In this document: in pieces, positions 2,381 through 54,213 of the stretch
How the letters are laid out: each line of letters starts with the position of its first letter
How positions within the stretch are numbered: the first letter of the stretch is position 1
Assembly (NCBI RefSeq): GCF_016903815.1
Contig: NZ_CP069973.1
Source of the DNA: Escherichia coli
GTDB taxonomy: Bacteria; Pseudomonadota; Gammaproteobacteria; Enterobacterales; Enterobacteriaceae
Reading direction: 5' to 3' (one strand)
DNA length: 64,000 nucleotides
Notes under the pieces: generated by a model
The model's input: only the letters and a program-made list of their open reading frames with translations
What the model was told of the DNA's origin: nothing
Databases searched by the model: none
Translations under genes and position numbers: made by a program

Positions 2381-3742
<1,362 letters not shown>

Positions 3743-4792: not shown

Positions 4793-5268
4793 TTTGTTGC
4801 CTTAATGAGTAGCGCCACCGCTTCACAGGCAATCCCTTCCCCACGTCCGGTAAATCCAAGTTTTTCCGTAGTAGTGGCTTTCACGTTAACATCATCCATA
4901 TGGCAGCCGAGATCTTCGGCAATAAACACGCGCATTTGTGGAATGTGCGGCAACATCTTCGGTGCCTGAGCGATGATAGTGACATCGACGTTGCCCAGGG
5001 TATAACCCTTCGCCTGAATACGACGCCAGGCTTCGCGTAGCAGCTCGCGGCTGTCGGCACCTTTAAATGCCGGATCGGTATCCGGGAACAGTTTGCCGAT
5101 ATCCCCCAGCGCCGCCGCGCCAAGCAATGCATCGGTCAACGCATGGAGCGCCACGTCGCCATCAGAATGCGCCAGCAATCCTTTTTCGTAAGGAATGCGT
5201 ACGCCACCAATGATAAGTGGGCCTTCACCGCCAAAGGCGTGTACGTCAAAACCGTGTCCAATTCGCAT
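4789..5268 (-). CDS. ispF: 2-C-methyl-D-erythritol 2,4-cyclodiphosphate synthase
   Basis: 159-aa ORF ([12 protein letters not shown]...), recognised as IspF; 4-bp overlap with truD. Confidence 0.96.
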
Positions 5269-5978
5269 TATGTATTCTCCTGATGGATGGTTCGGGTGAG
5301 GTAAAACTCGGCCAGTGCCAAATCTTCCGGTCGCGTGACTTTAATGTTATCCGCGCGGCCTTCGACCAACTGCGGATGGAATCCGCAATATTCCAGCGCC
5401 GAGGCTTCGTCGGTAATGGTAGCGCCTTCATTTAGAGCGCGCGTCAGGCAGTCATGTAACAGCTCGCGAGGGAAAAATTGCGGCGTCAGCGCGTGCCATA
5501 AGCCGTTGCGATCAACGGTATGAGCAATGGCATTTTTGCCCGGTTCGGCACGTTTCATCGTATCGCGCACTGGTGCGGCGAGGATCCCCCCCGTGCGGCT
5601 GGTTTCGCTCAACGCCAACAATCGCGCGAGGTCATCCTGATGCAGACAAGGACGAGCGGCGTCATGCACCAATACCCACTGCGCGTCGCCAGCGGCTTTC
5701 AGACCTGCCAGCACCGAATCGGCACGCTCATCACCGCCATCTACAACGGTGATTTGCGGATGATTCGCCAGAGGAAGTTGTGCAAAACGGCTATCGCCAG
5801 GACTTATGGCAATGACGACACGTTTCACCCGGGGATGCGCCAGCAGCGCATGCACCGAGTGTTCAAGAATGGTTTGATTACCGATTGAGAGATATTGCTT
5901 AGGACATTCCGTTTGCATTCGACGGCCAAATCCGGCCGCCGGAACCACGGCGCAAACATCCAAATGAGTGGTTGCCAT
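5268..5978 (-). CDS. ispD: 2-C-methyl-D-erythritol 4-phosphate cytidylyltransferase
   Basis: 236-aa ORF recognised as IspD; stop overlaps ispF start by 1 bp. Confidence 0.96.
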
Positions 5979-5996
5979 GTTAATTCCCGGGCTGAT

Positions 5997-6308
5997 TTAT
6001 CGATTGTTTTGCCCCGCAGACTGTGCGCGCTTCGACGCGTCAGGCACCAGACGATAAAAAGTTTCGCCCGGCCTGGTCATGCTGAGTTCATTACGCGCAC
6101 GCTCTTCGAGCGCCTCCTGGCCGCCATTGAGATCGTCAATTTCGGCAAAAAGTTGATCGTTTCGCGCTTTAAGTTTCGCGTTTGTAGCTTGCTGTGCCGC
6201 CACATCATCATTGACGCGGGTATAGTCATGTATACCGTTCTTACCGAACCACAGCGAATACTGTAGCCAGACCAGAATAGCCAGCAACAGCAGCGTTAGT
6301 TTACCCAT
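5997..6308 (-). CDS. ftsB: Cell division protein FtsB
   Basis: 103-aa ORF with N-terminal TM segment and coiled-coil; upstream of ispDF. Confidence 0.92.
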
Positions 6309-6501
6309 CCTGCCCCCTGAAAAACGGCATCATCATCCCATGCATCCGAAGACGACTCTACATCCTCTGTTGGGGATACCGCGACAACGCGGGCAAATGT
6401 ACCACATTTGTCCATTGTTACGTATACCCAGGGCGTGCAGAACATAATCTCATTATTAGTTACGGTTTGAATTATGAACAGAGGAGACAAGAAAGTACAA
6501 A

Positions 6502-6825
6502 TTAGCCCAGTAGCCACATAAACAGTGCGCCAAACATAATGCCTACTGTCACCAGGGTGAAAACAATACTGTAGCGTAGCTTTCCGTCCATCAATGAATG
6601 CAGCGCAATCCCCACCACTACCGCGACAGGCATCAGTGCCAGAAAGAAAGGCCAGGTGTAGATAAAGAAAAACAGCGTGTTAGAGCCATAAATCAACATC
6701 GGCATCGCCAGCGCAAATAACCAGGAGATAAAACCGACCACAGCACCAGGCAGTGACCATGTGGTTTCTTCATCCTCAGTAAGGCTGTCGTTATTTGTTA
6801 GTGTAATGTTATGGCTATTACGCAT
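6502..6825 (-). CDS. ygbE: Inner membrane protein YgbE (multi-pass, function unknown)
   Basis: 107-aa strongly hydrophobic ORF at the K-12 ygbE position between cysC and ftsB. Confidence 0.8.
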   Translation of the reverse strand: MRNSHNITLTNNDSLTEDEETTWSLPGAVVGFISWLFALAMPMLIYGSNTLFFFIYTWPFFLALMPVAVVVGIALHSLMDGKLRYSIVFTLVTVGIMFGALFMWLLG

Positions 6826-6874
6826 ATTTGATCCTGTTACTTTGACGAACCGGGCATGGAAACCCGGTGGTGTC

Positions 6875-7480
6875 TCAGGATCTGATAATATCGTTCTGTC
6901 TCAACAGATCTAATAATTGCTGTACCAAATTTGTTACTAATTGTTCACCATTGAGATGAATTTCTGCCGATTCAGGCGCTTCGTAAACGGAATCTATTCC
7001 CGTAAAGTTGCGCAGTTCACCGGCACGCGCTTTCTTATATAAGCCTTTTGGATCGCGGGCTTCGCAAATCGCCAGCGGCGTATCGACAAACACTTCGATA
7101 AAGCGCCCTTCTCCTACGCGTTCACGAACCATCTGGCGTTCGGCGCGGTGTGGCGAGATGAATGCGGTCAGCACCACCAGTCCGGCTTCAACCATCAAAT
7201 TCGCCACTTCACCGACGCGACGGATATTCTCTTTACGATCGGCATCGCTAAAACCGAGATCGCTGCATAATCCGTGGCGAACATTGTCGCCATCCAGCAG
7301 ATACGTACTGACGCCGAGTTTATGTAACGCCTCCTCCAGCGCCCCGGCGACCGTTGATTTACCGGACCCGGAGAGGCCGGTAAACCACAGCACTACACCA
7401 CGATGACCGTGGTGTAGCTCGCGTTGTTGCACAGTGACCGGATGGCTATGCCAGACGACGTTTTCGTCATGCAGCGCCAT
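6875..7480 (-). CDS. cysC: Adenylyl-sulfate (APS) kinase
   Basis: 201-aa ORF with P-loop (GLSGSGKST); recognised as CysC. Confidence 0.97.
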
Positions 7481-8907
7481 TATTTATCCCCCAGCAAATC
7501 GCGTGCGCCCCAGTGCGGAAAGTGGCGACGAACCAGGGCATTCAATTCCAGTTCGAATGCACTGAATTCAGATGGCGCAGCAGTTGCCTGGCTAACTGGC
7601 TCGTGCACCATACCGGCACCCACGGTCACATTGCTCAGGCGATCGATAAAAATCAGCCCACCGGTAACCGGATTTTGCTGATAACGATCTAACACCAGTG
7701 GCTCGTCAAAAGTGAGATCCACCAGGCCGATGCCGTTCAGCGGCAGGTTTTCAACTTCGCGTTGGGTAAGGTTATTAATATCAACCTGATAACGAATGCC
7801 ATCAACACGAGCACGTGTCTTCTTACCGGCAATTTTGATGTCGTAACTCTGGCCTGGGGAAAGCGGCTGTTCCGCCATCCATACCACATCCACCGACGCG
7901 CTCTGCACAGCCGGTAACGCTTCGTCTGCCGCCAGCAGCAGATCGCCACGGCTGATGTCGATCTCATCCGTCAGCACTAGGGTGATCGCTTCTCCGGCAA
8001 AGGCTTCTTCGCGATCGCCATCAAAAGTCACGATCCGCGCGACGTTTGATTCCACACCAGAGGGCAGCACTTTGACACGTTGCCCGACTTCCACTCGACC
8101 GGATGCCAGCGTTCCGGCGTAGCCACGAAAATCGAGATTCGGGCGATTAACGTACTGCACCGGGAAGCGCATTGGCTGGGCATCCACCACTCGCTGGATC
8201 TCCACGGTTTCCAGCACTTCGAGCAGTGTCGGACCGCTGTACCACGGCATACTTTCACTTTGCGAAGCCACGTTGTCACCTTCCAGTGCAGAGAGCGGCA
8301 CAAAGCGGATATCCAGATTACCCGGCAGCTGCCCGGCAAAGGTCAGATAATCTTCGCGAATACGGGTGAACGTCTCTTCACTGTAATCCACCAGATCCAT
8401 TTTGTTGATCGCCACGACCAGATGTTTGATCCCCAACAGTGTGGAGATAAAACTGTGACGACGGGTTTGATCGAGCACGCCTTTACGGGCATCGATCAGT
8501 AAGATCGCCAGTTCACATGTCGATGCGCCAGTCGCCATATTGCGAGTGTACTGCTCGTGCCCTGGGGTATCGGCGATAATAAATTTACGCTTCTCGGTAG
8601 AGAAATAACGGTAAGCCACGTCAATGGTGATGCCCTGTTCGCGCTCAGCTTGCAGGCCGTCCACCAGCAGTGCCAGATCCAGTTTTTCGCCCTGGGTGCC
8701 GTGACGTTTACTGTCGTTATGCAGCGATGAGAGCTGATCTTCGTAGATTTGGCGGGTATCGTGCAGCAGGCGACCAATCAGGGTACTTTTGCCGTCATCG
8801 ACGCTACCACAGGTCAGAAAACGCAGCAGGCTTTTATGTTGTTGTGCAATCATCCAGGCTTCGACGCCGCCTTCATTGGCGATTTGTTGTGCAAGTGCGG
8901 TGTTCAT
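7480..8907 (-). CDS. cysN: Sulfate adenylyltransferase subunit 1 (GTPase)
   Basis: 475-aa ORF with GTP-binding motifs ([14 protein letters not shown]); stop overlaps cysC start. Confidence 0.97.
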
Positions 8908-10068: not shown

Positions 10069-11106
10069 ATGTTTTCCGCATTGCGCCACCGTACCGCTGC
10101 CCTGGCGCTCGGCGTATGCTTTATTCTCCCCGTACACGCCTCGTCAGCTAAACCTGGCGATTTTGCTAATACTCAGGCACGACATATTGCTACTTTCTTT
10201 CCGGGACGCATGACCGGAACTCCTGCAGAAATGTTATCTGCCGATTATATTCGCCAACAGTTTCAGCAAATGGGTTATCGCAGTGATATTCGGACATTTA
10301 ATAGTCGGTATATTTATACCGCCCGCGATAATCGCAAGAGCTGGCATAACGTGACGGGAAGTACGGTGATTGCCGCTCATGAAGGCAAAGCGCCGCAGCA
10401 GATCATCATTATGGCGCATCTGGATACTTACGCCCCGCTGAGCGATGCTGACGCCGATGCCAATCTCGGCGGACTGACGTTACAAGGAATGGATGATAAC
10501 GCTGCAGGTTTAGGTGTCATGCTGGAACTGGCAGAACGCCTGAAAAATACGCCTACCGAGTATGGTATTCGATTTGTGGCGACCAGCGGCGAAGAGGAAG
10601 GGAAATTAGGCGCTGAGAATTTACTCAAGCGGATGAGTGACACCGAAAAGAAAAATACGCTGCTGGTGATTAATCTCGATAACTTAATTGTTGGCGATAA
10701 ATTGTATTTCAACAGCGGTGTAAAAACCCCTGAAGCAGTAAGGAAATTAACGCGCGACAGGGCGCTGGCAATTGCGCGTAGTCATGGAATTGCCGCAACG
10801 ACCAATCCGGGTTTGAATAAAAATTATCCGAAGGGTACTGGCTGTTGTAATGATGCCGAAGTTTTCGACAAAGCCGGTATTGCCGTACTTTCAGTAGAAG
10901 CAACAAATTGGAATCTTGGGAATAAGGATGGTTATCAGCAACGCGCAAAAACAGCTGCATTCCCTGCGGGAAATAGCTGGCATGACGTAAGACTGGATAA
11001 TCAACAACATATTGATAAGGCACTTCCTGGAAGAATAGAACGTCGCTGCCGTGATGTTATGCGGATAATGCTACCGCTGGTGAAGGAGCTGGCGAAGGCG
11101 TCTTGA
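10069..11106 (+). CDS. iap: Alkaline phosphatase isozyme conversion aminopeptidase Iap (M28 family)
   Basis: 345-aa ORF with signal peptide; directly flanks the CRISPR array as in E. coli. Confidence 0.93.
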   Translation: MFSALRHRTAALALGVCFILPVHASSAKPGDFANTQARHIATFFPGRMTGTPAEMLSADYIRQQFQQMGYRSDIRTFNSRYIYTARDNRKSWHNVTGSTVIAAHEGKAPQQIIIMAHLDTYAPLSDADADANLGGLTLQGMDDNAAGLGVMLELAERLKNTPTEYGIRFVATSGEEEGKLGAENLLKRMSDTEKKNTLLVINLDNLIVGDKLYFNSGVKTPEAVRKLTRDRALAIARSHGIAATTNPGLNKNYPKGTGCCNDAEVFDKAGIAVLSVEATNWNLGNKDGYQQRAKTAAFPAGNSWHDVRLDNQQHIDKALPGRIERRCRDVMRIMLPLVKELAKAS

Positions 11107-11126
11107 TGGGTTTGAAAATGAGAGCT

Positions 11127-11765
11127 GGGAGTTCTACCGCAGGGGCGGGGAACTCCAAGTGATGTCCATCATCGCATCCAGTGCGTCCGGTTTATCCCCG
11201 CTGACGCGGGGAACACGTCAATAGGCGGCGTCCCGTAGCCGTCCCCTTCGGTTTATCCCCGCTGGCGCGGGGAACACGTTGAGGTCGATAAGTACGAACG
11301 GTTTCCCTGCGGTTTATCCCCGCTGGCGCGGGGAACACGATCGCCTGCTCCAGCGTCACTCCCTGCCCCTCGATTTATCCCCGCTGGCGCGGGGAACACT
11401 TCTGATACGTACTGAGGCCGGTTGTGATACGCGATTTATCCCCGCTGGCGCGGGGAACACTAACCCCCAATGAAGTTAATAAAGTCTATGGCCGATTTAT
11501 CCCCGCTGGCGCGGGGAACACATGAGATTAAAATACTCAGTACTCTTACTCGCCGATTTATCCCCGCTGGCGCGGGGAACACCAGCGTGGCGCGATAAAG
11601 CAATGTGTCTGGCTCGATTTATCCCCGCTGGCGCGGGGAACACCAGAGGCAACCGACGCGGATTCAGTAGGAAAGCGATTTATCCCCGCTGGCGCGGGGA
11701 ACACCGATAGACACTTTGCGGTCATTGTCTATTCGGCGATTTATCCCCGCTGGCGCGGGGAACAC
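11127..11765 (-). CRISPR. Type I-E CRISPR array: 10 regular 29-bp repeats plus one degenerate terminal repeat, 10 spacers of 32 bp
   Basis: Plus-strand repeat cggtttatccccgctggcgcggggaacac at 61-bp period. Repeats start ~11188, 11249, 11310, 11371, 11432, 11493, 11554, 11615, 11676, 11737; degenerate repeat ~11127..11155. AT-rich leader on the cas2 side, so transcription runs toward iap. Confidence 0.97.
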
Positions 11766-11861
11766 ACTAAGCATACATAACTGTTTTTAAACAAATTTAT
11801 TCCGCATCAACAATCTACCAACTAAATTAAAACATTTCCTTATTTTTAAAGAACAGATAAC
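11766..11861 (-). promoter_or_regulatory. CRISPR leader (AT-rich) between array and cas2
   Basis: AT-rich stretch abutting the newest repeat. Assigned by position, which matches the leader location described for E. coli I-E arrays. Confidence 0.7.
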
Positions 11862-13071
<1,210 letters not shown>

Positions 13072-13075
<4 letters not shown>

Positions 13076-13722
13076 GCCTCTGCTCCGGGTTTGATCAGCA
13101 TCAGACCACAGCCGAACGCGCGGCTTTTGCCATACCCCTGGCTCAGACGTTGCAGAAATAACCCAGGATCGGTGACCGTAAGCATCCCCGTATAATCCAC
13201 GCTACTGAACTGGATCAGTTGCCGGGAGTTTTCCCGCCGCAGTTGCTGTTGTCGGTAGGCATCGACCGAGGTATCCAGTAGTGTAAAACCGCTTCTTTCC
13301 CCCTGCGCTGCCAGCCAGTCCAGCGCCGCCTGTTGTTGATGCAACCAGACATCACTTCCTTCCACCTGCCCCCTCACCTGCCGTTTCGCCTCCATCAGCA
13401 AGTCGTGGCGTTTGCCCGCTTTACAAATTGTTGGATTCGCCCGCAGGTTGAAACAAAGGGATTGTCCGGTACGCAACTCTGGCGCAAATGGTCGGCATTC
13501 GATGGTGAAAATATCACTTTCCGCCGGGCGTTCCTGCGACAGGACAAAAAAGCGAAACGCCCCCTGGAGTTCTTCCCGACGATAAAGAAATTGCCTTTCT
13601 TTGCCGCCAGGAAAAAGATCCCACAGCCACTGATGCATTACATATTCACCGCGACCCACCAAATGCAGCAACTGCGCAGGCAAAAGCTGGCCGGTATGTA
13701 AGGTTATTCTTGAGAGGTACAT
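13072..13722 (-). CDS. casE: CRISPR pre-crRNA endoribonuclease Cas6e (CasE/Cse3)
   Basis: Track ORF 13072..13860 trimmed to internal ATG (MYLSRITLHTGQ...), about 216 aa, with AGGAGG upstream. C-terminal glycine-rich G(F/M)GCGL-type motif. Start choice is inferred. Confidence 0.85.
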
Positions 13723-14450
13723 GGTTCCTCCTTGCTGAGCCACGGCCCCTGATTGATGGTGCGTTCCCCAAACAGCCACTGCTGACGATTTAAAGGAACA
13801 TCCCGGCGACGTAATATTTTGCTCGCGACCAGGCCGTCGTGTTCCCCTTCCCACCAGCATTCATCCTGAAGTTTCGGGAGTGAGACTTTCAGTTCGCGGA
13901 AACTATCCTGATACTGTTGGTATGCGTTACGTAAGACATCAGACGCGTTGCCTTCGAGCAGTAACGGCGCAAGTGGTAACGCCAGCGGATGACTTTTTCG
14001 CCCCAGATAAAGCGGAAAAACCGGATGACGTAAACCGTCCTGCAACTGTTCAAGCCTGTAAGACGCATCGGGGGTTGTTGCCACCGCCACCATCCACCAG
14101 GCATCGGTGTAGTAGTCGCGCCGGGAGATAATCGCGCTCAGAAGATCAGGGGCGCTCAACTCTTCGCGACGGCTGAAATAACGCGCTTTACGCACCTCTT
14201 TTGGCATCTGGACCGTGTGATAATCCCGTGCCCAGCGCGGGTTACGGCTGGCGCAAACCACCAGTGAATAGTGGCGGTTAAACGCGTTTAATCGTTCGGT
14301 ATCATCACGCCGAATCCCTACCCCGGCAGCCAGCAGCCCCAGCAATGCTGAGCGCGAAGGCAGTTCATGGGTATGACGCACTTCGCCGGGGGCATCGACG
14401 CCCCAGGATGCCATTGGCCCATGAAGCTGAAAAATCAAATATTGGCTCAT
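13704..14450 (-). CDS. casD: Cascade subunit Cas5e (CasD)
   Basis: 248-aa ORF at the Cas5 position between cas7 and cas6e; N-terminus (LIFQLHGPMASWG) is Cas5-like. Assigned by family resemblance and position. Confidence 0.85.
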   Translation of the reverse strand: MSQYLIFQLHGPMASWGVDAPGEVRHTHELPSRSALLGLLAAGVGIRRDDTERLNAFNRHYSLVVCASRNPRWARDYHTVQMPKEVRKARYFSRREELSAPDLLSAIISRRDYYTDAWWMVAVATTPDASYRLEQLQDGLRHPVFPLYLGRKSHPLALPLAPLLLEGNASDVLRNAYQQYQDSFRELKVSLPKLQDECWWEGEHDGLVASKILRRRDVPLNRQQWLFGERTINQGPWLSKEEPCTSQE

Positions 14451-14460
14451 TAGCCGCCCC

Positions 14461-15516
14461 TTACGCGCAGATAAAGTCCAGCACGTCCTTCATGCTTCCC
14501 TGTTTGTTCATCACGTCAAAGCTTACGCATTCGGTCTTCTGTTCATAGACCGTATTCATATTTTCGCGAAGCGTTGTAATACGCTGCACCGCCACATCTA
14601 ACTGCCGGGTGCCATTAATGGGTTCATAGAAAGCCGCCGCCAGAGAGCGTGGTTGTTCAGTGCCTTTTTCTGCCAGCGCCCAGGAGGCGTAGGCACGGCT
14701 GGCAAAGCTGTTCTGTTTGCCGGTTGGGGAGACTTTAAGTGCGGCTTCCGTAAAGGCGCGCAAGGTCTGATTAGCTAACGCTTCGTCACCGCCGAGGTTT
14801 TCGACCAGCAGATCTTTATCGATGCAGATATAGGTGTAGAACAGCGCAGAACCGAATCCGGTTTCACCAAGATGCCCGGCACCGGCATCTTCAGAAGCCT
14901 GGCGCAAATCATCAACGGCGGTGAAAAAATCATCTTCGACAATCGTTTCACTGACACCAAATGCATGCGCGACCTGGCAGGCGGCTTCAACATTAAATTC
15001 GGGTTTATTCGCCAGCATACGACCAAACATAGCGATATCTACCGCCATGCGATCTTTACGTAACAAAGCGAGATCTTCCTCTTTTGGCGCGCGCTTTTCT
15101 TCGGCCAGTTGATGGGCCAGCGCTTTTACGGCGTCAAATTCTGCCGGGCTGATATGGACTAGCTGTTCAGTTTCGGCGTTAGTGAGCGGATCTTTTGGTT
15201 TTTTGTCGTTTTTAGCTTTCCCAAGATAATCCGCAATTTTTGCCGCCCATTCGATGGCTTTTTTCTCTTCGATGCCTTTCTCAATCAGGATAGTTGCCGC
15301 CTCACGCGCAATACGCCCACTGCGAATACCAATATGGCCCGCCAGTGCCTGTTCAAAAAGTGCAGAAGTGCGCCACGCACGTTTCAGACTTTGTGAGGAA
15401 ACGCGCAGACGCGTTGCTCCACCCAGTACCACAGTTTTTGGCGCACCGGTGTCATCACGGTTAAGGTTGGCAGCAGGGTAAGCGGTTAACAAATGAAGCT
15501 GAATAAATGTCGTCAT
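14461..15516 (-). CDS. casC: Cascade backbone subunit Cas7e (CasC/Cse4)
   Basis: 351-aa ORF; N-terminus (LHLLTAYPAANLNRDDTGAPKT) resembles E. coli CasC. Confidence 0.9.
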   Translation of the reverse strand: MTTFIQLHLLTAYPAANLNRDDTGAPKTVVLGGATRLRVSSQSLKRAWRTSALFEQALAGHIGIRSGRIAREAATILIEKGIEEKKAIEWAAKIADYLGKAKNDKKPKDPLTNAETEQLVHISPAEFDAVKALAHQLAEEKRAPKEEDLALLRKDRMAVDIAMFGRMLANKPEFNVEAACQVAHAFGVSETIVEDDFFTAVDDLRQASEDAGAGHLGETGFGSALFYTYICIDKDLLVENLGGDEALANQTLRAFTEAALKVSPTGKQNSFASRAYASWALAEKGTEQPRSLAAAFYEPINGTRQLDVAVQRITTLRENMNTVYEQKTECVSFDVMNKQGSMKDVLDFICA

Positions 15517-15530
15517 GAGATAGTCCTTTA

Positions 15531-16067
15531 TTAATTTTGTTCGTTATCGGCGTCGCCAGCCTGGTAATATTCCAGCGCCCAGCGGATACGGATAAATTCT
15601 GTTGGCCGCTGCTGGCGGCGGTGATGATTGAGCAGGTCGTCGCTCTCCTGGCACCAGCGGAAAATATCTTCTGCCAAAGAGATAAGATTGACGGAACCAT
15701 TTAATAATTTGACCGCGCGACGTAACTGACGCAGTAAATCATCAGGCGTTTTTACTGCCGACAGGCGAGTAAAACGCCCCTCCGACATTACCGCCGCCAG
15801 CTGCGCGGCAAAAGGCTGCCGTTCATCAATAGCTTTAACATTGGCGCTAACTGCGGCGACCAGCGCCAGTGCGGTAAAACGCCACTCTTGTGCTTCAATT
15901 TTCCACAAAGTGTGGGTCTGCATCAGCAGAGAACGAAACCCTTCTGACAGACAAACATCATTAACCGTTGTGCTACGCCGCAGACTGGCACGATTGCCGC
16001 GTTTTTCCTGCAACTCTTCGTGCCATTTACGCAGCGTGGCTTTGTGCTCCTCTTTTACAATACTCAT
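15531..16067 (-). CDS. casB: Cascade small subunit Cse2 (CasB)
   Basis: 178-aa ORF between cse1 and cas7. Assigned by position and size; I do not recognise the sequence itself. Confidence 0.8.
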   Translation of the reverse strand: MSIVKEEHKATLRKWHEELQEKRGNRASLRRSTTVNDVCLSEGFRSLLMQTHTLWKIEAQEWRFTALALVAAVSANVKAIDERQPFAAQLAAVMSEGRFTRLSAVKTPDDLLRQLRRAVKLLNGSVNLISLAEDIFRWCQESDDLLNHHRRQQRPTEFIRIRWALEYYQAGDADNEQN

Positions 16068-17626
16068 TCAGCAGCCTCCTGCTTTTTCTCCCTGGCGGCT
16101 TTAGCATTTTGCTTCTCCGCCGATGTTGTAAAATATTTCTTGCGCGCGGTCATGACGCGTTTCAAATCAACGGGCTCATATGGATTGGTGAAGACACGCT
16201 CGTCAAAATCCTGACGCGCGAATAACCAAATTTCCTTTTGCCATTTGCTGAGTAATTCATCCGCATCCTGACCTTCTTCAATGTGGCGCACTAACCTCAG
16301 GAAGCGATGCTGAGTTTTGTTCCAGAAGTCGATATCCACAAAACTGAAATCACCCCGTGCACCTTTTGGATCGGAGAACCACGCTTCTTTCAATGCACTC
16401 CGTAACAGACTCAGAATCCGTGAAGCCGTTTGCGCAGCCAGCCGCAGCTTCGGTATCTGGCCTTCTTTTTTATCGAGCAGCAGCGGAAAATGGTGTTCGT
16501 ACCAACAGCGCGCTTTCATGTTGTCAAAATCATAACCAAATCCCCACAGGCCCACTTTTGCCTGCTTGAGACTGCTGGCATTAAAGAGTTTCACCACCAG
16601 CGCGGGAAGTTCCGTATTGTTTTCTGATTTACCCGTTTCGATAAGGCCTAACCAGTCGCGCCAGATTAAACCGCCTGGTTGTGGTTTGACCGAGTAAAAC
16701 TCGCCGCCCTCTTTAAGGGGTACACGGTAAGGCGTTAAGGGATGCTGCCACATGGCATAATTCGCGCCGTAATTTTTGGTCGTCATCAGGCTCAGGAGCG
16801 CGTCGTTCTGCTCGCCGCAAATATCGCAGTTGCCGACTGTCGTGGTATTAAAATCAATACGAATACGCCGCGGCATTCCCCAGTACGCCTGGAGTTTATT
16901 AACCTGATCATCGGTTACCACCGCACCGGCCAGTTCGCTGGTACGCGTCGGGCCAAGCCAGGGGAAAACCAGATCGTCAAATTTTTTGGGTAGCGGTAAG
17001 TCGGCTTCGTCCTGCGGCATCACATTGAGCCACAGTTTGCGCCACAAGGGCGTTTGTTGATTGCCCTGATATTCCTGTAATTCAATCAGAGTGGTCATCG
17101 GCCCACCGCCGCGTAAACCGGTGCGGTAGCCTTTACCACCTGACGGCGCATTTAACTGTAGGGAGAACAGAGCTAACGCAGAACAATGTGGGCACAGGTA
17201 TTCCGTTACACCACGCTTGATAAAGTGGTCTTTATTAAACTTCGTTGTTTGAGCGCCGGGAATCTCAGGCAGTAGCGAAGCGACCTGAACTTTATCTCCT
17301 GTGAGCGCCTCGAAATCCTGCATAAATGAAGGGGAATCTGGCCCAAACTGGAAAGCGTGTTCTAAGGACAGCAATGCTTCCCGTAGCTTTTCAGATTCCA
17401 GTCCGTCTTCCCAGATATCATCCCAACGACGATGATCTTTTGGCGCAAAGCTGGTTTGTAGTAGCCCCAGCAAAAACTGCCATGCCGCTCCCTGGAGATC
17501 TGCCCGTGGCGCAGCAATATCGACAACATTTTCATCCGCCAGATCGACAGGCGCCAGTTTGCCTGTCGTTCCGTCTTTATAACGAACGGGCAACCACGGG
17601 GTTGTCAGAAGTGAAAACGAGTTCAT
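16064..17626 (-). CDS. casA: Cascade large subunit Cse1 (CasA)
   Basis: Track ORF 16064..17695 trimmed to internal ATG (MNSFSLLTTPWLPVRY...) with GAGAGGA upstream, about 520 aa. Assigned by position and N-terminal resemblance; start uncertain (alternative ATG 6 bp upstream). Confidence 0.82.
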   Translation of the reverse strand: MNSFSLLTTPWLPVRYKDGTTGKLAPVDLADENVVDIAAPRADLQGAAWQFLLGLLQTSFAPKDHRRWDDIWEDGLESEKLREALLSLEHAFQFGPDSPSFMQDFEALTGDKVQVASLLPEIPGAQTTKFNKDHFIKRGVTEYLCPHCSALALFSLQLNAPSGGKGYRTGLRGGGPMTTLIELQEYQGNQQTPLWRKLWLNVMPQDEADLPLPKKFDDLVFPWLGPTRTSELAGAVVTDDQVNKLQAYWGMPRRIRIDFNTTTVGNCDICGEQNDALLSLMTTKNYGANYAMWQHPLTPYRVPLKEGGEFYSVKPQPGGLIWRDWLGLIETGKSENNTELPALVVKLFNASSLKQAKVGLWGFGYDFDNMKARCWYEHHFPLLLDKKEGQIPKLRLAAQTASRILSLLRSALKEAWFSDPKGARGDFSFVDIDFWNKTQHRFLRLVRHIEEGQDADELLSKWQKEIWLFARQDFDERVFTNPYEPVDLKRVMTARKKYFTTSAEKQNAKAAREKKQEAAE

Positions 17627-17723
17627 ACGCATCCTCTCGTAAAAAAGACCATCCCAGGTCGGTTGTCCATCATTCCATCCTTTTCGGTGTATCAACTATT
17701 CAGAGAGCCCTGTCGCAGGCATC

Positions 17724-20423
17724 TCAACCAACCTTGCCAGTCAATCCTTCCATAGCCGAATACCCGCAACTTTCGTCATCGGTAACTAAAATCACGTTTG
17801 CCATCTCCGGATCTTTCCGCTGTTCAATGCACCACTGCCTGAACGCTTCCCCTTCCAGTAAAGAAAACTCATCCCGATGTTTTTTCCACCAGCTTCGACG
17901 CACTCTGACAACGCTCATTTCCCATGCGTGAGCACCGTTGGCATAAGGCTTCACCACACTGGCAATACAGGTAGCCAGCCACAGGGAAACAGACTCCTCC
18001 GCCAGACGTGTCGACAGCTTTTCCGGAAGGTAATCGTTGATATTGGCGGCATAGCCAGGCCTGAAGTTCAGCACAAACTTTTTAGCCATTGCGCGATCGC
18101 AGTAATATTTGCCCACTTGCTCCTGCTCGCTGCGGGCAAATCCTTCCGGCATTACCACGTCCTCACCGTAGACTGATTCAATAAGAAGGCGGGCTGCGTG
18201 TGGCATTTGAATAGCGCCTTGCTCACGCAGTACACGCTGCGTCAGCCAGATTCGTCCATGATCGGGATAGACATATGCACTGTTACGCATGGCACTGCCG
18301 AACCATTCGTCACCTGGAGCGTCGTCCCAGACGGGGGCCAGAATCAGCAATTCAGGAGGGGAACGCTCGTCTTTTCCGTCACGCTTTAACTGACCATTAA
18401 TATCGCGGATATGCCGCTGTAATCGCCCCGCTCGCTGGATCAGCAAATCAACAGGGGCCAGGTCGGAAATCATTTCGTCCATATCGCAATCAACGCTCGA
18501 CTCTAAGACCTGAGTACAAATGAGGACTTTTCCGGCACGCTGTGAGCTATCTTCTTTACCGAAGCGTGCCAGCGTTTCCGTTTCAATTCGCTGGCGATCG
18601 CTAAAAGCAAAGCGGCTATGAAACAGAGAAAGGCTGGAAGCAGGAATGACGCCGCGGGCAAGCAACTGACGATAAACCTTAATAGCGTCATCGACAGAAT
18701 TCCGGATCCAGGCGATGCATTTCCCCTGACTTACTGCCGATTCGATACGCGCAATACATTCTTGTTCGCTATGAAGCCAACCCACGCTCACGCTACGCTC
18801 AACGTCTTTGCGCGTCGCTACCCGGTGTGAATGCACATCGGATTTCGTAACGTGCGTCAGCCAGGGGTAATCATCCTTTTCCAGGAACGGAGCTTCTTGC
18901 TGGCCCTCTGTACCACGCGCAAAGGCAGCAACGAGTTTGTCGCACTGCTGTTGAGATAACGTGGCAGAAAGCAAAATGACGCTGTTTCCGCCACGCGCCT
19001 GCCGCTCGATCAGCCCTTCAAGAATGCATGACATGTAAGCGTCACAGGCATGGATCTCATCAGCCAGCAGGATTTTGTTACTCAGTCCCAGAAGCCGCAG
19101 ATTATTATGTTTGAACGGCATCACAGCCATCATCGCCTGATCCAGCGTGCCGACGCCAATTTCAGCCAGTAGCGCCTTCTTGTTACTGTCGGCAAACCAG
19201 GCCGCACATCCCTGACTGAACGTTTGTTCATCCGGTTCTTCTGACCCGACTAAATCACCGGACCAGAGTGATTCATTAAAGCGGTCCATTAATGTTCGGG
19301 CACTGTGTGCCAGCACCAGGCTGGGGCGGGACTCTGGCGAATAGAAAGCAAGCCAGGTTTTGACCAGTCGATCGTACATGGCATTGGCCGTTGCCATTGT
19401 TGGCAGGCCAAAAAACAAACCCTGCGCTTTACCCGCAGCCATCAACCTGTGCGCCAGGATAAGCGCCGCTTCCGTTTTACCTGCGCCAGTCACATCTTCC
19501 AGAATAAATAACTGTGGCCCTGGCTGGCTGATATCCAGATCCAGCACCTTTTGCTGTAACGGTGTCGGATTCTCAATAAAAGGAAACAGCGTATTAATTC
19601 CGGTGAAAGGCGCGACTTTTGCTTTTAGAGGAAAGACGGTTAAGGCGTTTTGAGCCTGAACTAAAGTTTTCTGCCAGTAACCTTTAATATCCATTGGGTG
19701 TGCGACGCGTGGAAAAAATCGCGTTGACGAACCCGTCCAGTCTGCGAGCACGACGGTTGCAGAGATATACCAGGAAAGGTGTTTTATAAGTTCAATGCCC
19801 TCATCATCATCCCAGAATGCGGGGATCTCTATGAGCGGAAACAGTGGTTTGATTTCAAGAAGAAAATCTCGCGCGGCAGCTTTGTCTTCAGGCAGAAAAT
19901 TATCCAGTTCATCAATACGGTCAGGCGGGCGACCATGATGCCCGGTAGTTATGGGCATCCACATCTCCATCACCCGTTTAAGTTTGCGCGGAGAGAGTGA
20001 AGATGAAGGAAGCAATTCTTCGTATTCACTTAAATAATGATGCCACAGCCAGTAGCCCAGCGTTGAATGAGAGATCTTTTCGTAATTCTTTCTTGCGCCT
20101 TCCGGAACCTTGAGTTGTGGGTGCAGGTAAAGTTGCTGAAAAGAGCGGGCAAATTTTCCAGTATCGTGCCAGCACAATAGCCAGGCGAAAAATTGTGCTG
20201 CCTGCTCCGTATCAGCGAAACCTAGTTGACGAAAATAGTCAGTCAGCCCGAAGCAATTGCTTTTAACCATTAAATAGCCCATCGCGGCTACATCCAGCGA
20301 ATGCCAGCAAAGAAGGTGATAGTCGTCGCCCCCGTCTTTCTCGCCGCGTCGGGTTTTTCCCCAGAAATCAAAAAAAGTCACAATATTTTTATCCTTCAGT
20401 AAACTTAAAGGATATTTACGCAT
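17724..20423 (-). CDS. cas3: CRISPR-associated nuclease/helicase Cas3 (HD nuclease + DExH helicase)
   Basis: 899-aa ORF with N-terminal HD-like region (HSLDVAAMGY), Walker A (GAGKT) and DEIH box; ATG start. Confidence 0.95.
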   Translation of the reverse strand: MRKYPLSLLKDKNIVTFFDFWGKTRRGEKDGGDDYHLLCWHSLDVAAMGYLMVKSNCFGLTDYFRQLGFADTEQAAQFFAWLLCWHDTGKFARSFQQLYLHPQLKVPEGARKNYEKISHSTLGYWLWHHYLSEYEELLPSSSLSPRKLKRVMEMWMPITTGHHGRPPDRIDELDNFLPEDKAAARDFLLEIKPLFPLIEIPAFWDDDEGIELIKHLSWYISATVVLADWTGSSTRFFPRVAHPMDIKGYWQKTLVQAQNALTVFPLKAKVAPFTGINTLFPFIENPTPLQQKVLDLDISQPGPQLFILEDVTGAGKTEAALILAHRLMAAGKAQGLFFGLPTMATANAMYDRLVKTWLAFYSPESRPSLVLAHSARTLMDRFNESLWSGDLVGSEEPDEQTFSQGCAAWFADSNKKALLAEIGVGTLDQAMMAVMPFKHNNLRLLGLSNKILLADEIHACDAYMSCILEGLIERQARGGNSVILLSATLSQQQCDKLVAAFARGTEGQQEAPFLEKDDYPWLTHVTKSDVHSHRVATRKDVERSVSVGWLHSEQECIARIESAVSQGKCIAWIRNSVDDAIKVYRQLLARGVIPASSLSLFHSRFAFSDRQRIETETLARFGKEDSSQRAGKVLICTQVLESSVDCDMDEMISDLAPVDLLIQRAGRLQRHIRDINGQLKRDGKDERSPPELLILAPVWDDAPGDEWFGSAMRNSAYVYPDHGRIWLTQRVLREQGAIQMPHAARLLIESVYGEDVVMPEGFARSEQEQVGKYYCDRAMAKKFVLNFRPGYAANINDYLPEKLSTRLAEESVSLWLATCIASVVKPYANGAHAWEMSVVRVRRSWWKKHRDEFSLLEGEAFRQWCIEQRKDPEMANVILVTDDESCGYSAMEGLTGKVG

Positions 20424-21790: not shown

Positions 21791-21827
21791 GCCTGATGCG
21801 ACGCTCACGCGTCTTATCAGGCCTACA
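21791..21827. repeat. REP (repetitive extragenic palindromic) element
   Basis: gcctgatgcgacgctcacgcgtcttatcaggcctaca between cysI stop and cysH start; matches the E. coli REP consensus I recognise. Confidence 0.8.
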
Positions 21828-21842
21828 AGACCGGGCTGATGG

Positions 21843-28840: not shown

Positions 28841-29761
<921 letters not shown>

Positions 29762-29809
29762 TTACAAGTCCCCAGCCCGAAACCGTAGGCAGGATCATCC
29801 GGCTGCACG

Positions 29810-38265: not shown

Positions 38266-38311
38266 GTGAGGAAGACCGGGCGGGAAACTGCCCGGCCTGA
38301 ACATACCTGAA

Positions 38312-38449
38312 TGGTTATCCCCGCTGGCGCGGGGAACATAAGTTCGACAACTTAAAAAATGATAACAAGTCCGGTTTATCCCCGCTGATGCAGGGAACAT
38401 AATAAAAACTTTAACTAGTTCGGTTTATCCCTGTTTTTACAAGGAATAT
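38312..38449 (-). CRISPR. Degenerate CRISPR remnant (three decayed I-E-like repeats)
   Basis: tggttatccccgctggcgcggggaaca (~38312), cggtttatccccgctgatgcagggaacat (~38372), cggtttatccctgtttttacaaggaatat (~38421); irregular spacing; AT-rich sequence follows. Confidence 0.7.
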
Positions 38450-38902: not shown

Positions 38903-39236
38903 TGGTTTATTCCCGCTGGTGCGGGGAACTCATCAGTGATATCCAACATTGCGGAGCTAAACGCGGTTTATCCCCGCTGGCGCGGGGAACTCTAATATCC
39001 CTGGCGATAATCAACCGGCTTACTCGGTTTATCCCCGCTGGCGCGGGGAACTCGAGAGCGAGGGGAGATTCCGGCAGGGCGTGCACGGTTTATCCCCGCT
39101 GGCGCGGGGAACTCGCGGGTATGCTCCGCTCCGTGTTCGACAAACTCGGTTTATCCCCGCTGGCGCGGGGAACTCAAGGTCGCGGGGACGCCACGGGCAG
39201 TCAATGTCGGTTTATCCCCGCTGGCGCGGGGAACTC
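38903..39236 (-). CRISPR. Second type I-E CRISPR array: 6 repeats (first degenerate), 5 spacers of 32 bp
   Basis: Repeat cggtttatccccgctggcgcggggaactc at 61-bp period, starting ~38903 (degenerate tggtttattcccgctggtgcggggaactc), 38964, 39025, 39086, 39147, 39208. AT-rich leader on the queE side. Confidence 0.95.
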
Positions 39237-52716: not shown

Positions 52717-52751
52717 GCCGGATGCGGCGTTAACGCCTTATCCGGCCTACA
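52717..52751. repeat. REP element
   Basis: gccggatgcggcgttaacgccttatccggcctaca downstream of barA; matches the REP consensus. Confidence 0.75.
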
Positions 52752-52834
52752 AAACCAATTAAATTCAATAAATTAAAAAGTATGTTGGCCTGATACGTAG
52801 CGCAACAGGCAATTTTGCGTTTGGTATCAGTCTC

Positions 52835-52872: not shown

Positions 52873-54213
52873 TTAACGCACCATGCACGGGCGCTTGTTA
52901 TCAAACGTCCAGCCAGGAATCAGATACTGCATTCCCATCGCATCGTCTCGCGCACCAAGCCCGTGTTTCTGATACAGCTCGTGGGCTTTCATCACCTGAT
53001 CCATATCGATTTCTACGCCCAATCCTGGTTTTTGCGGCACCTGTACCAGCCCGCCTTTGATCTCAAACGGTTCTTTGGTCAGACGCTGATTGCCTTCCTG
53101 CCAGATCCAGTGCGTATCAATAGCAGTAATTTTACCCGGTGCAGCAGCGGCTACATGGGTAAACATCGCCAGGGAAATATCGAAGTGGTTGTTAGAGTGT
53201 GAACCCCAGGTCAGGCCAAATTCATGGCACATTTGCGCCACACGTACCGAACCTTGCATCGTCCAGAAATGCGGATCCGCCAGCGGGATATCAACGGATT
53301 GTAACGAGAGCGTATGGCCCATCTGCCGCCAGTCGGTGGCGATCATATTGGTTGCGGTCGGCAGGCCAGTCGCGCGACGGAACTCCGCCATCACTTCACG
53401 CCCGGAGAAACCTTGCTCCGCACCACACGGATCTTCTGCATAAGCCAGCGAACCTTTCAGGTATTTACCGATTTTAATCGCTTCGTTCAGCGACCAGGCA
53501 CCGTTAGGATCGAGGGTAATACGCGCCTGTGGGAAGCGTTGCGCCAGTGCCACAATAGATTCTGCTTCTTCTTCCCCGGCCAGTACACCGCCCTTCAGTT
53601 TGAAATCGTTGAAGCCATATTTTTCATATGCCGCTTCCGCCAGGCGCACCACCGCATCCGGCGTCATCGCTTCTTCGTGACGCAGGCGATACCAGTCACA
53701 TTTATCATCCGGCTGGCTTTGATACGGCAGCGGTGTGGCTTTGCGATTACCGACGAAGAACAGATAACCGAGCATTTCGACTTCGCTACGCTGTTGACCA
53801 TCGCCCAGCAGCGATGCCACGTTAACCCCCAGATGCTGCCCCAGCAGATCCAGCATTGCCGCTTCTATCCCGGTAACTACATGAATAGTGGTCCGCAGGT
53901 CAAATGTCTGCAAACCGCGCCCACCGGCATCACGATCGGCAAATGTATTACGCACCAGCGTCAGAACGTTTTTGTATTCACCCAGCGTTTTACCCACCAC
54001 CAGCGGAATCGCATCTTCCAGCGTTTTACGGATTTTCTCGCCGCCGGGAATTTCCCCTACGCCAGTGTGACCAGAATTATCTTTGATAATCACAATATTA
54101 CGCGTGAAGAACGGTGCGTGTGCACCACTCAGATTCATCAGCATACTGTCATGGCCCGCCACCGGGATGACCTGCATTTCAGTAACAACAGGCGTCGTAA
54201 ATTGAGAACTCAT
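52873..54213 (-). CDS. gudD: Glucarate dehydratase
   Basis: Track ORF 52873..54237 trimmed to [22 protein letters not shown]..., about 446 aa; enolase-superfamily. Confidence 0.93.

What the first reader, a model, noticed from the sequence alone, without database searches (positions are those of the whole stretch)
11156..11736. Ten 32-bp spacers of unknown origin in array 1 (candidates for protospacer and self-target search)
Plus-strand spacers, oldest to newest: caagtgatgtccatcatcgcatccagtgcgtc; gtcaataggcggcgtcccgtagccgtcccctt; gttgaggtcgataagtacgaacggtttccctg; gatcgcctgctccagcgtcactccctgcccct; ttctgatacgtactgaggccggttgtgatacg; taacccccaatgaagttaataaagtctatggc; atgagattaaaatactcagtactcttactcgc; cagcgtggcgcgataaagcaatgtgtctggct; cagaggcaaccgacgcggattcagtaggaaag; cgatagacactttgcggtcattgtctattcgg. 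I cannot assign targets by eye. An intact cas operon together with spacers makes matches to phage, plasmid or chromosomal DNA informative.
Basis: seen in the sequence. Interest (0 to 1): 0.4.

Follow-up and report, generated by a model that had tools for sequence, protein, structure and literature searches.

The report
E. coli CRISPR array, spacers traced
This is the ordinary, already annotated CRISPR array next to the cas genes of an E. coli chromosome; six of its ten spacers can be traced to E. coli prophages and one small conjugative plasmid, as expected for this species.

Summary
Window 11127-11765 holds 11 repeats of 29 nt and ten 32-nt spacers, exactly as listed and in the stated age order.

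It is the E. coli CRISPR2.1 (CRISPR1) array. It lies between iap and a complete type I-E cas operon of the non-K-12 "cas-EO" variant. The array is 100% identical in many complete RefSeq E. coli genomes, and 117 genomes carry all ten spacers.

Six spacers have protospacers, all with the AWG (CWT) motif known for this variant:
- S2: portal gene of a P2-like prophage, 30/32, ATG.
- S3: coupling-protein gene of a 31-kb conjugative plasmid, 32/32, ATG.
- S5, S6, S7: portal, RecE-like and LprI genes of one temperate phage family common in ST131. Matches are 29/32, 32/32 and 32/32, with PAMs ATG, AAG and ATG. All three lie on the same strand.
- S9: tail-sheath-like gene of another prophage, 32/32, AAG.

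S1, S4, S8 and S10 stay untraced. I found no self-target: S7 and its protospacer co-occur in at most 1 of 563 genomes.

Whether the system is expressed cannot be told from sequence. This is an ordinary result of an already known kind. A side finding is that ISEcp1-blaCTX-M-15 sits inside S7 in one strain and carried part of this array onto an IncI1 plasmid.

The parts
11127..11765 (-). CRISPR2.1 (CRISPR1) array: 11 repeats of 29 nt, with the first one on the + strand (11127-11155) degenerate, and 10 spacers. Transcribed on the - strand from the leader. Repeats are type CRISPR-A (...GGGGAACAC on the + strand).
   Evidence: Annotated 'CRISPR' in identical RefSeq genomes. The repeat RNA folds into a 7-bp stem at -15 kcal/mol.
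11766..11861 (-). AT-rich leader between the newest repeat and cas2.
   Evidence: Read directly. The same sequence follows the array in MLI106K2 and Nord122. A simple sigma-70 scan found no consensus promoter.
11156..11187 (-). S1, the oldest spacer. It is the anchor spacer shared by most E. coli arrays. No protospacer found.
   Evidence: perfect or 1-2 mismatch copies under 'CRISPR' in thousands of genomes, including K-12 derivatives. The 23/32 hits in a Gp157 gene have PAM GGA and no codon periodicity, so I treat them as chance.
11217..11248 (-). S2: 30/32 match with PAM ATG in the portal gene of a P2-like prophage (strain S1-KEN-03-A, NZ_CP145698.1).
11278..11309 (-). S3: 32/32 match with PAM ATG in the type IV coupling-protein gene of the 31-kb conjugative plasmid pGF47-C (NZ_CP172172.1).
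11339..11370 (-). S4: untraced.
   Evidence: Only array copies in the sampled rows of E. coli genomes. The best phage hit is 26/32 in Salmonella phage STP03, with PAM TAT and E-value 6.
11400..11431 (-). S5: 29/32 match with PAM ATG in the portal gene of a temperate phage (prophage of ST131 strain 81009; phages vB_EcoM-705R4, -569R10, -720R5 and -783R5). Mismatches fall at positions 3, 12 and 21, all a multiple of 3 apart.
11461..11492 (-). S6: 32/32 match with PAM AAG in a RecE/exonuclease VIII-like gene of the same prophage family (strains GF43 and LCP30S3_I5). It is 25/32 with PAM GAG in the ST131 copy.
11522..11553 (-). S7: 32/32 match with PAM ATG, covering the start codon of the LprI-family gene of the same prophage family. 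Found in roughly 430-445 complete E. coli genomes and 10 IMG/VR contigs. It is 31/32 with flank ACG in ~110-kb Klebsiella IncFIB plasmids.
11583..11614 (-). S8: untraced.
   Evidence: Every S8 hit in 5,426 E. coli genomes is an array. No hit in phages, plasmids or IMG/VR. The one 20-mer hit in GTDB genomes is 23/32 in an Acidobacteriota MAG, which I treat as chance.
11644..11675 (-). S9: 32/32 match with PAM AAG in a DUF3383 (tail-sheath-like) gene of a prophage in strain STEC384 (NZ_CP091029.1).
11705..11736 (-). S10, the newest spacer: untraced. It contains an internal inverted repeat (ATAGACA...TGTCTAT).
   Evidence: Hits in E. coli are arrays, including S1-S2-S3-S10 deletion variants. In metagenomes there is one array contig and one 26/32 hit with PAM GCA in a ComM-like gene, which I treat as chance.
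11862..20423 (-). Complete type I-E cas operon: cas2 11862-12155, cas1 12152-13075, cas6e 13072-13722, cas5e 13704-14450, cas7e 14461-15516, cse2 15531-16067, cse1 16064-17695 (the true start is probably about 27 codons inside this ORF), cas3 17724-20423. It is the cas-EO (O157:H7-type) variant.
   Evidence: ORFs.: all eight pass the NCBIfam I-E models end to end, while the K-12-specific Cse1 and Cas3 models score below their cut-offs.: cas1-cas2 is 96.2% identical to O157:H7 strains and about 72% identical to K-12 derivatives.

Best explanation
The region is the iap-proximal CRISPR array (CRISPR2.1/CRISPR1) of an Escherichia coli chromosome. It belongs to a complete type I-E system of the cas-EO variant. 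The array is read on the - strand from the leader at 11766-11861.

Inferred from the established type I-E pathway: Cas6e would cut the transcript at the 7-bp repeat hairpins into 61-nt crRNAs. Cascade would use these to find DNA carrying the spacer sequence next to an AWG motif, and would recruit Cas3 to degrade it.

The ten spacers are a chronological record of mobile DNA met by the ancestor of this lineage. In order, they are: an ancestral anchor spacer, a P2-like phage, a small conjugative plasmid, one unknown, three consecutive spacers from a single lambdoid-head/P2-tail temperate phage, one unknown, a second myovirus-type temperate phage, and one unknown.

The three same-phage, same-strand spacers S5-S7 most likely came in one episode. 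That was either primed adaptation or repeated capture during exposure to that phage. I put priming at about 0.5.

Shown here: the anatomy, the intact genes, the variant type, the protospacers, their PAMs, and the near-absence of spacer and target in the same genome. Inferred: transcription, crRNA processing, interference and priming.
For: Array anatomy. Genomic context (cysDNC-iap-array-cas-cysHIJ) and 100% identity to RefSeq genomes where the region is annotated as CRISPR.

Full-length cas genes. cas-EO type: (96.2% to O157:H7, about 72% to K-12 derivatives) and the CRISPR-A repeat ending AACAC as defined in PMC3737337.

Protospacers lie in annotated phage or plasmid genes with no flanking repeats: S2, S3 (67-69), S5/S6/S7 (9, 13, 15, 18-24, 33, 36, 40, 58-60), S9 (34-36). 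All six flanks are ATG or AAG. Given the matched G, the two further positions are A+W in 6 of 6, against a chance of 1/8 each. This is the CWT motif reported for cas-EO/leader-A arrays, where CAT is the commonest (PMC3737337).

Mismatches in S5 (positions 3, 12, 21; also 9 in a second prophage) and most of those in S6 fall a multiple of 3 apart, as expected for diverged coding sequence. S5, S6 and S7 lie on one strand of one prophage in LCP30S3_I5.

The S7 search gave 564 places in 563 genomes, so spacer and target are almost never together. This agrees with Dion et al. 2024, who found that E. coli CRISPR1 spacers almost exclusively target prophages and rarely co-occur with them (PMC10910852).
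Against: There is no expression or interference data. E. coli type I-E is generally regarded as repressed under laboratory conditions (abstract of PMC10910852). A simple scan found no consensus promoter in the leader.

The array is identical in 117 genomes from many hosts and countries. The only variants I saw are deletions and an IS insertion, so there is no sign of ongoing acquisition.

Four spacers have no target. The same-strand pattern of three spacers has a 1-in-4 chance under random orientation. The non-co-occurrence of S7 and its prophage is confounded by clonal structure, because the prophage sits mainly in ST131-type genomes.
Confidence: 0.88

Rival explanations
1. The array is a frozen fossil. 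The system is transcriptionally silent in this lineage, the spacers record ancient encounters, and they give no present-day protection. This is compatible with the identification above but denies current function.
For: The ten-spacer array is identical in 117 complete genomes from humans, dogs, cattle, chickens, frogs and water. The variants seen are deletions (S1-S2-S3-S10) or an IS insertion, never extra leader-side spacers in the sampled rows. No consensus promoter was found by the simple scan. The literature describes laboratory silence of the system and stable arrays.
Against: All eight cas genes are intact. Three spacers still match extant prophages perfectly with a functional PAM. S7 and its target co-occur in at most 1 of 563 genomes. 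Dion et al. argue for anti-prophage activity in nature.
Confidence: 0.45
2. S5, S6 and S7 were acquired in three unrelated naive events from a phage family that is simply very common in E. coli. They do not come from one primed episode.
For: The phage family is abundant. The S7 target is in roughly 430-445 of 5,426 genomes and the S5 target in about 419. Two of the three PAMs are ATG. S5 and S6 match different extant alleles best: the ST131 copy for S5, and the GF43/LCP30S3_I5 copy for S6.
Against: The three spacers are consecutive in the array and lie on the same strand of the phage. The surviving S5 targets all carry a seed-region mismatch at position 3, which is the kind of target that primes (priming by mismatched targets is established for type I-E, e.g. 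PMC4678831 as listed).
Confidence: 0.45
3. The database matches are chance similarities, or are copies of the array itself rather than true protospacers.
For: Many hits in the searches are indeed arrays: S1, S4, S8 and S10 hits, mislabelled chromosomes in the plasmid collection, and metagenome contig L027. Several weak hits are at chance level.
Against: The six accepted targets lie inside annotated phage or plasmid genes with no repeat beside them. Four are 32/32. E-values run from 1e-6 to 1e-3 against a 28-Gb collection. All six carry AWG. Shuffled spacers give only 0.007 hits with 9 or fewer mismatches per 40 kb.
Confidence: 0.01
4. Some spacers target the host's own chromosome and act in self-regulation or autoimmunity.
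For: None found.
Against: There is no off-array match with 9 or fewer mismatches in the 64-kb window. Genomes with the identical array show a single place, the array itself, for the ten-spacer query in all sampled rows.
Confidence: 0.03

Closest known systems
E. coli O157:H7-type CRISPR-Cas I-E (cas-EO genes, leader-A, CRISPR-A repeats; CRISPR2.1 array), Diez-Villasenor et al. 2013 (PMC3737337)
   Same: Same locus (iap-array-leader-cas2...cas3). Same repeat type ending AACAC. cas1-cas2 is 96.2% identical to O157:H7 strains. The protospacer motif is CWT (= AWG), with CAT the commoner form: 4 ATG and 2 AAG here.
   Different: Different spacer content. The leader-proximal seven repeats carry a G-to-A change (CGATTT instead of CGGTTT on the + strand).
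E. coli K-12 CRISPR I array with cas-EK genes
   Same: Same chromosomal position, same 29-nt repeat and 32-nt spacer architecture, same eight-gene operon. The oldest spacer S1 is shared with 2 mismatches.
   Different: cas1-cas2 is only about 72% identical. The K-12-specific Cse1 and Cas3 models fall below their cut-offs. K-12 repeats are CRISPR-T, and its acquisition motif is CTT only.
Anti-prophage spacer repertoire of natural E. coli CRISPR1 arrays, Dion et al. 2024 (PMC10910852)
   Same: The traced spacers hit temperate phages found as prophages in other E. coli. Collections of isolated phage genomes give almost nothing. Spacer and target rarely share a genome.
   Different: One spacer (S3) targets a small conjugative plasmid rather than a prophage. 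I could not check whether these particular spacers are in that paper's tables.

Membership tests
Type I-E CRISPR array of E. coli (CRISPR2.1 / CRISPR1) | Direct repeats of 29 nt matching CGGTTTATCCCCGCTGRCGCGGGGAACWC, spaced by 32-nt spacers (61-nt period) | tested here: met
   Consensus quoted from PMC3737337.
Type I-E CRISPR array of E. coli (CRISPR2.1 / CRISPR1) | Located between iap and cas2, with an AT-rich leader on the cas2 side | tested here: met
   (RefSeq annotation: iap | CRISPR | cas2e)
Type I-E CRISPR array of E. coli (CRISPR2.1 / CRISPR1) | Complete cas-E gene set (cas3, cse1, cse2, cas7, cas5, cas6e, cas1, cas2) | tested here: met
   all eight are above the curated NCBIfam cut-offs with end-to-end profile coverage.
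Type I-E CRISPR array of E. coli (CRISPR2.1 / CRISPR1) | Repeat transcript forms the stem-loop cut by Cas6e | tested here: met
   predicted 7-bp stem with a 4-nt loop, -15.1 kcal/mol, z-score -3.6. This is a prediction only; cleavage was not tested.
Type I-E CRISPR array of E. coli (CRISPR2.1 / CRISPR1) | Array is transcribed and processed into crRNAs that direct interference | not testable with these tools
   No expression data. The simple promoter scan of the leader found nothing.
cas-EO / leader-A / CRISPR-A variant (as opposed to the K-12 cas-EK variant) | [quoted passage not shown] | tested here: met
   repeats R2-R11 end in AACAC (the degenerate terminal repeat R1 ends in AACTC). Definition taken.
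cas-EO / leader-A / CRISPR-A variant (as opposed to the K-12 cas-EK variant) | cas genes of the O157:H7 type | tested here: met
   96.2% identity to four O157 strains and about 72% to K-12-derived strains. The identity distribution is bimodal (2,732 records at 90% or more; 1,221 at 60-80%).
cas-EO / leader-A / CRISPR-A variant (as opposed to the K-12 cas-EK variant) | Protospacers flanked by CWT (AWG), with CAT frequent | tested here: met
   6 of 6 traced protospacers: ATG x4 and AAG x2.
Primed adaptation episode (type I-E) | Several consecutive spacers from one replicon, on the same strand as the priming protospacer | tested here: met
   S5, S6 and S7 are consecutive and lie on one strand of one prophage. 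The chance of same-strand orientation alone is 1/4.
Primed adaptation episode (type I-E) | A partially mismatched priming target, and Cas3/Cascade-dependent acquisition | not testable with these tools
   Extant S5 targets carry a seed mismatch at position 3, which is compatible with priming. The historical target sequence is unknown.
Rfam CRISPR direct-repeat families | Match at gathering score | tested here: not met
   no Rfam family reached its gathering score in 11000-12000. This does not bear on the identification, which rests on the repeats and cas genes.

The most novel reading that the evidence does not exclude
S5-S7 record a natural primed-adaptation burst against one temperate phage family that is now widespread as a prophage in ST131. 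On this reading the cas-EO system of this multi-host lineage is, or recently was, active enough to keep that phage out, along with the S9 phage, the S2 phage and the S3 plasmid. That would explain the almost complete non-overlap of spacer and target among 5,426 genomes.
Probability: 0.3. Interest if true: 0.35.

Novelty: already known. Interest (0 to 1): 0.2.

Why it matters
For the scan, this closes the finding. The array is real, its orientation and PAM expectations are right, and it behaves like every other natural E. coli CRISPR1 array of the cas-EO type.

The practical gain is a target list for six spacers. These give ready-made substrates to test whether the non-K-12 type I-E variant is active in wild isolates: one phage family with three protospacers, a second prophage, a P2-like phage and a 31-kb conjugative plasmid.

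The spacer content also works as a lineage barcode. It exposes a chromosome-to-plasmid move of blaCTX-M-15 by ISEcp1 (see the items noticed in passing).

Tried and rejected
1. Isolated-phage (INPHARED) and PLSDB plasmid searches with all ten spacers. These gave only the S5 30/33 phage hit and the S7 32/33 Klebsiella plasmid hit. Prophages in E. coli genomes were far more informative.

2. IMG/VR exact scans of the central 20-mers of S2, S3, S4, S8, S9 and S10 gave 0 hits each. The S7 positive control gave 10 contigs. S2, S3 and S9 were later traced elsewhere, so these nulls are weak.

3. Metagenome scan for S10 and GTDB genome scan for S8. These returned one array contig plus two chance-level hits: 26/32 with PAM GCA in a ComM-like gene, and 23/32 in an Acidobacteriota MAG.

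4. S1 at 23/32 in a phage Gp157 gene: PAM GGA, mismatches clustered and not codon-periodic. Rejected.

5. S4 at 26/32 in the virulent Salmonella phage STP03: PAM TAT, the base next to the spacer does not match, E-value 6. Rejected.

6. S10 'protospacers' in MLI106K2 and Ec-2939 turned out to be unannotated short arrays, S1-S2-S3-S10.

7. My first model for the plasmid mini-array was a microhomology template switch. I dropped it in favour of ISEcp1 read-through transposition once the donor-type structure was found in the Nord122 chromosome.

8. Rfam gave nothing at gathering score. The simple promoter and terminator scan gave nothing.

9. The spacer sequences were not found in any paper's main text, nor in the one held supplement of Dion et al..

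Full report
**Observation.** Window 11127-11765 contains eleven 29-nt direct repeats with an exact 61-nt period and ten 32-nt spacers. The repeat core occurs 18 times in the window: 10 here (the degenerate terminal repeat falls outside the 3-mismatch limit) and the rest in a second array and a remnant near 38.3-39.2 kb. None occurred in 100 shuffles. The first repeat on the + strand (11127-11155) is degenerate. The last (11737-11765) abuts a 96-nt AT-rich stretch and then cas2.

**What it is.** The flanking ORFs are cysC/N/D and iap on one side, and cas2, cas1, cas6e, cas5e, cas7e, cse2, cse1, cas3 and then the cysH/I/J side on the other. A 901-nt query across the array is 100% identical to many complete RefSeq E. 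coli chromosomes, where PGAP annotates 'iap | CRISPR | cas2e'. So this is the E. coli CRISPR2.1 (CRISPR1) array.
- All eight cas proteins pass the curated NCBIfam type I-E models over their full length. The K-12-specific Cse1 and Cas3 models score below their cut-offs.
- cas1-cas2 is 96.2% identical to O157:H7 strains and only about 72% identical to K-12 derivatives. The distribution across 3,953 genomes is clearly bimodal.
- Repeats R2-R11 end in AACAC, which is the 'CRISPR-A' type that Diez-Villasenor et al. link to leader-A and the cas-EO gene variant (PMC3737337).
- The repeat RNA is predicted to form a 7-bp stem with a 4-nt loop at -15 kcal/mol.

**Orientation and age.** The cas operon and the array are read on the - strand, with the leader at 11766-11861. 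Three independent signs agree:
- The degenerate repeat sits at the S1 end.
- S1 is the anchor spacer found under 'CRISPR' annotations in thousands of E. coli genomes, including K-12 derivatives with two mismatches.
- Repeats R5-R11 share a G-to-A change (CGATTT) that R2-R4 lack. This is what is expected if the leader-proximal repeat mutated once and was then copied at each later insertion.

**Where the spacers come from.** I searched 33-nt queries (the spacer plus the repeat-derived C) against isolated phages, PLSDB plasmids, 5,426 complete E. coli genomes, IMG/VR, JGI metagenomes and GTDB genomes. PAMs below are written on the crRNA-sense strand.

| Spacer | Match | PAM | Target |
|---|---|---|---|
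| S2 | 30/32 | ATG | Portal gene of a P2-like prophage, strain S1-KEN-03-A |
| S3 | 32/32 | ATG | Type IV coupling-protein gene of the 31-kb conjugative plasmid pGF47-C; four plasmid places in RefSeq E. coli |
| S5 | 29/32 | ATG | Portal gene of a temperate phage present in about 419 genomes, mostly ST131-type, and in the phages vB_EcoM-705R4, -569R10, -720R5 and -783R5 |
| S6 | 32/32 | AAG | RecE-like gene of the same prophage family in GF43 and LCP30S3_I5; 25/32 with PAM GAG in the ST131 copy |
| S7 | 32/32 | ATG | Start codon region of the LprI-family gene of that same family; roughly 430-445 genomes and 10 IMG/VR contigs |
| S9 | 32/32 | AAG | DUF3383 tail-sheath-like gene of a different prophage in STEC384 |

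None of these targets has a CRISPR repeat beside it, and all lie in annotated phage or plasmid genes.

**Strength of the matches.** Shuffled spacers give about 0.007 hits with 9 or fewer mismatches per 40 kb. The mismatches of S5 (positions 3, 12, 21, and also 9 in another prophage) and most of those of S6 fall a multiple of 3 apart, the signature of diverged coding sequence. Given the matched G, the two further PAM positions are A+W in 6 of 6 targets, against a chance of 1/8 each. ATG x4 and AAG x2 is the CWT motif, with CAT the commoner form, that was reported for natural leader-A arrays and found experimentally for Cas1-Cas2 of the cas-EO variant.

**The S5-S7 cluster.** In LCP30S3_I5 one roughly 48-kb prophage, integrated at the tRNA-Leu/Cys/Gly-pgsA site, carries all three protospacers on the same strand, spread over about 29 kb. 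Three consecutive spacers from one element and one strand fit a single episode, possibly primed adaptation. Extant S5 targets carry a seed mismatch at position 3, and such targets are known to prime rather than be cleaved. Three naive captures from a very common phage cannot be excluded, because the strand agreement alone has a 1-in-4 chance.

**Self-targets.** No off-array match with 9 or fewer mismatches exists in the 64-kb window. In every sampled genome that carries the identical array, the only place matched is the array itself. For S7 alone, 563 genomes give 564 places. So among the genomes that have the spacer (14 of the 59 full-length sampled rows; 117 genomes carry the full array) and those that have the target (45 of 59, roughly 430-445 genomes), at most one genome has both. 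That genome is FXCREC016, which I did not resolve. This agrees with Dion et al. 2024. It is confounded by clonal structure, because the prophage is concentrated in ST131-type genomes.

**Untraced spacers.** S1, S4, S8 and S10 have no credible target. All S8 hits in E. coli are arrays. The S4 and S10 hits in the sampled rows are arrays or deletion variants. The remaining weak hits have wrong PAMs and chance-level scores.

**How it works.**
- Shown here: the array anatomy, the intact operon, the variant type, the targets, the PAMs, and the mutual exclusion of spacer and target.
- Inferred from the established type I-E pathway: transcription from the leader, Cas6e cleavage at the repeat hairpin into 61-nt crRNAs, Cascade recognition of AWG-flanked targets, Cas3 degradation, and Cas1-Cas2 insertion at the leader end with duplication of the first repeat.
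- Open: whether the system is expressed. A simple promoter scan found nothing. The array is identical in 117 genomes from many hosts, with only deletion variants and one IS insertion seen. So it may be a frozen record.

**Novelty.** Nothing departs from what is known. The array is annotated in public genomes, the variant and its PAM are described, and prophage targeting by E. coli spacers is published. The spacer-to-target assignments are useful but routine. Interest is low.

**Side finding.** Strain Nord122 has this same ten-spacer array with an ISEcp1-blaCTX-M-15-WbuC unit inserted inside S7, with target duplication ATTAA. The IncI1 plasmid pR11-698-2 carries the same unit extended by S7(1-10)-R-S6-R-S5-R plus 'CT' from the end of S4. 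It is inserted in a DUF1281 gene with duplication TAAAC. The new outer end (C)CTCGATT resembles the ISEcp1 inverted-repeat end CCTAGATT. This is the pattern of ISEcp1 read-through transposition from chromosome to plasmid, and the CRISPR fragment marks the donor lineage.

Noticed in passing
Not in the window. L023 (NZ_CP139853.1, Nord122 chromosome) 5001-8420, corresponding to window 11522-11553 (S7).: In strain Nord122 the same ten-spacer array is split by an ISEcp1-blaCTX-M-15-WbuC unit inserted inside spacer S7, with 5-bp target duplication ATTAA.
   Followed up: yes
L002 (NZ_CP107157.1, IncI1 plasmid pR11-698-2) 5970-6130: The plasmid carries a three-repeat, two-spacer mini-array identical to window 11371-11521 (R-S5-R-S6-R) at the outer end of its ISEcp1-blaCTX-M-15 unit, inserted in a DUF1281 gene with duplication TAAAC. 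It looks like ISEcp1 read-through transposition out of a Nord122-like chromosome. It is the only plasmid with this junction in PLSDB and, with the Nord122 chromosome, one of only two records with the array-to-unit junction in RefSeq E. coli.
   Followed up: yes
L002 5958-5970 and L023 5123-5135: The two ISEcp1 target sites (spacer S7 and the IncI1 DUF1281 gene) share the 10-nt string TGAGATTAAA. This may be a target preference or a coincidence. It is unexplained.
   Followed up: partly
window 38903-39236: There is a second array with its own leader: six CRISPR-T type repeats (ending AACTC) and five spacers. Its fourth spacer (39115-39146) matches the same STEC384 prophage as S9, on the same strand, at 28/32 with flank GTG.
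   Followed up: partly
window 38311-38449: Three decayed copies of the same repeat lie upstream of array 2. This is probably the CRISPR2.2 remnant.
   Followed up: no
window 11371-11765 versus 11188-11338: There is a repeat polymorphism. R5-R11 begin CGATTT and R2-R4 begin CGGTTT. R2 alone has CTGACG instead of CTGGCG in the loop. The first change marks the leader-side repeat lineage after S3/S4.
   Followed up: partly
L006 (NZ_CP117049.1, MLI106K2) 2789-3061: Deletion variants of this array exist, with content S1-S2-S3-S10. They are often left unannotated by PGAP, and several genomes have them.
   Followed up: partly
L001 (NZ_CP084854.1) 6001-6033, and 15 similar non-mobilizable Klebsiella/Raoultella plasmids of 91-140 kb (most ~110 kb; IncFIB in the one inspected): The S7 target gene (LprI/DUF1311 family) also occurs on Klebsiella plasmids, at 31/32 but with an ACG flank instead of ATG. 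The gene is therefore shared between an E. coli prophage and these plasmids.
   Followed up: partly
window 11705-11736: The newest spacer S10 contains an inverted repeat (ATAGACA-N14-TGTCTAT). This suggests an operator- or terminator-like origin in an intergenic region. No target was found.
   Followed up: no
window 21807-21832, 29746-29771, 52731-52756: Copies of a REP-like palindromic unit (…CTTATCAGGCCTACAA…) are scattered in intergenic positions.
   Followed up: no
window 53051-53350 and 54415-54714: Two 300-nt stretches 1,364 nt apart are 75% identical. They are probably adjacent paralogous genes.
   Followed up: no
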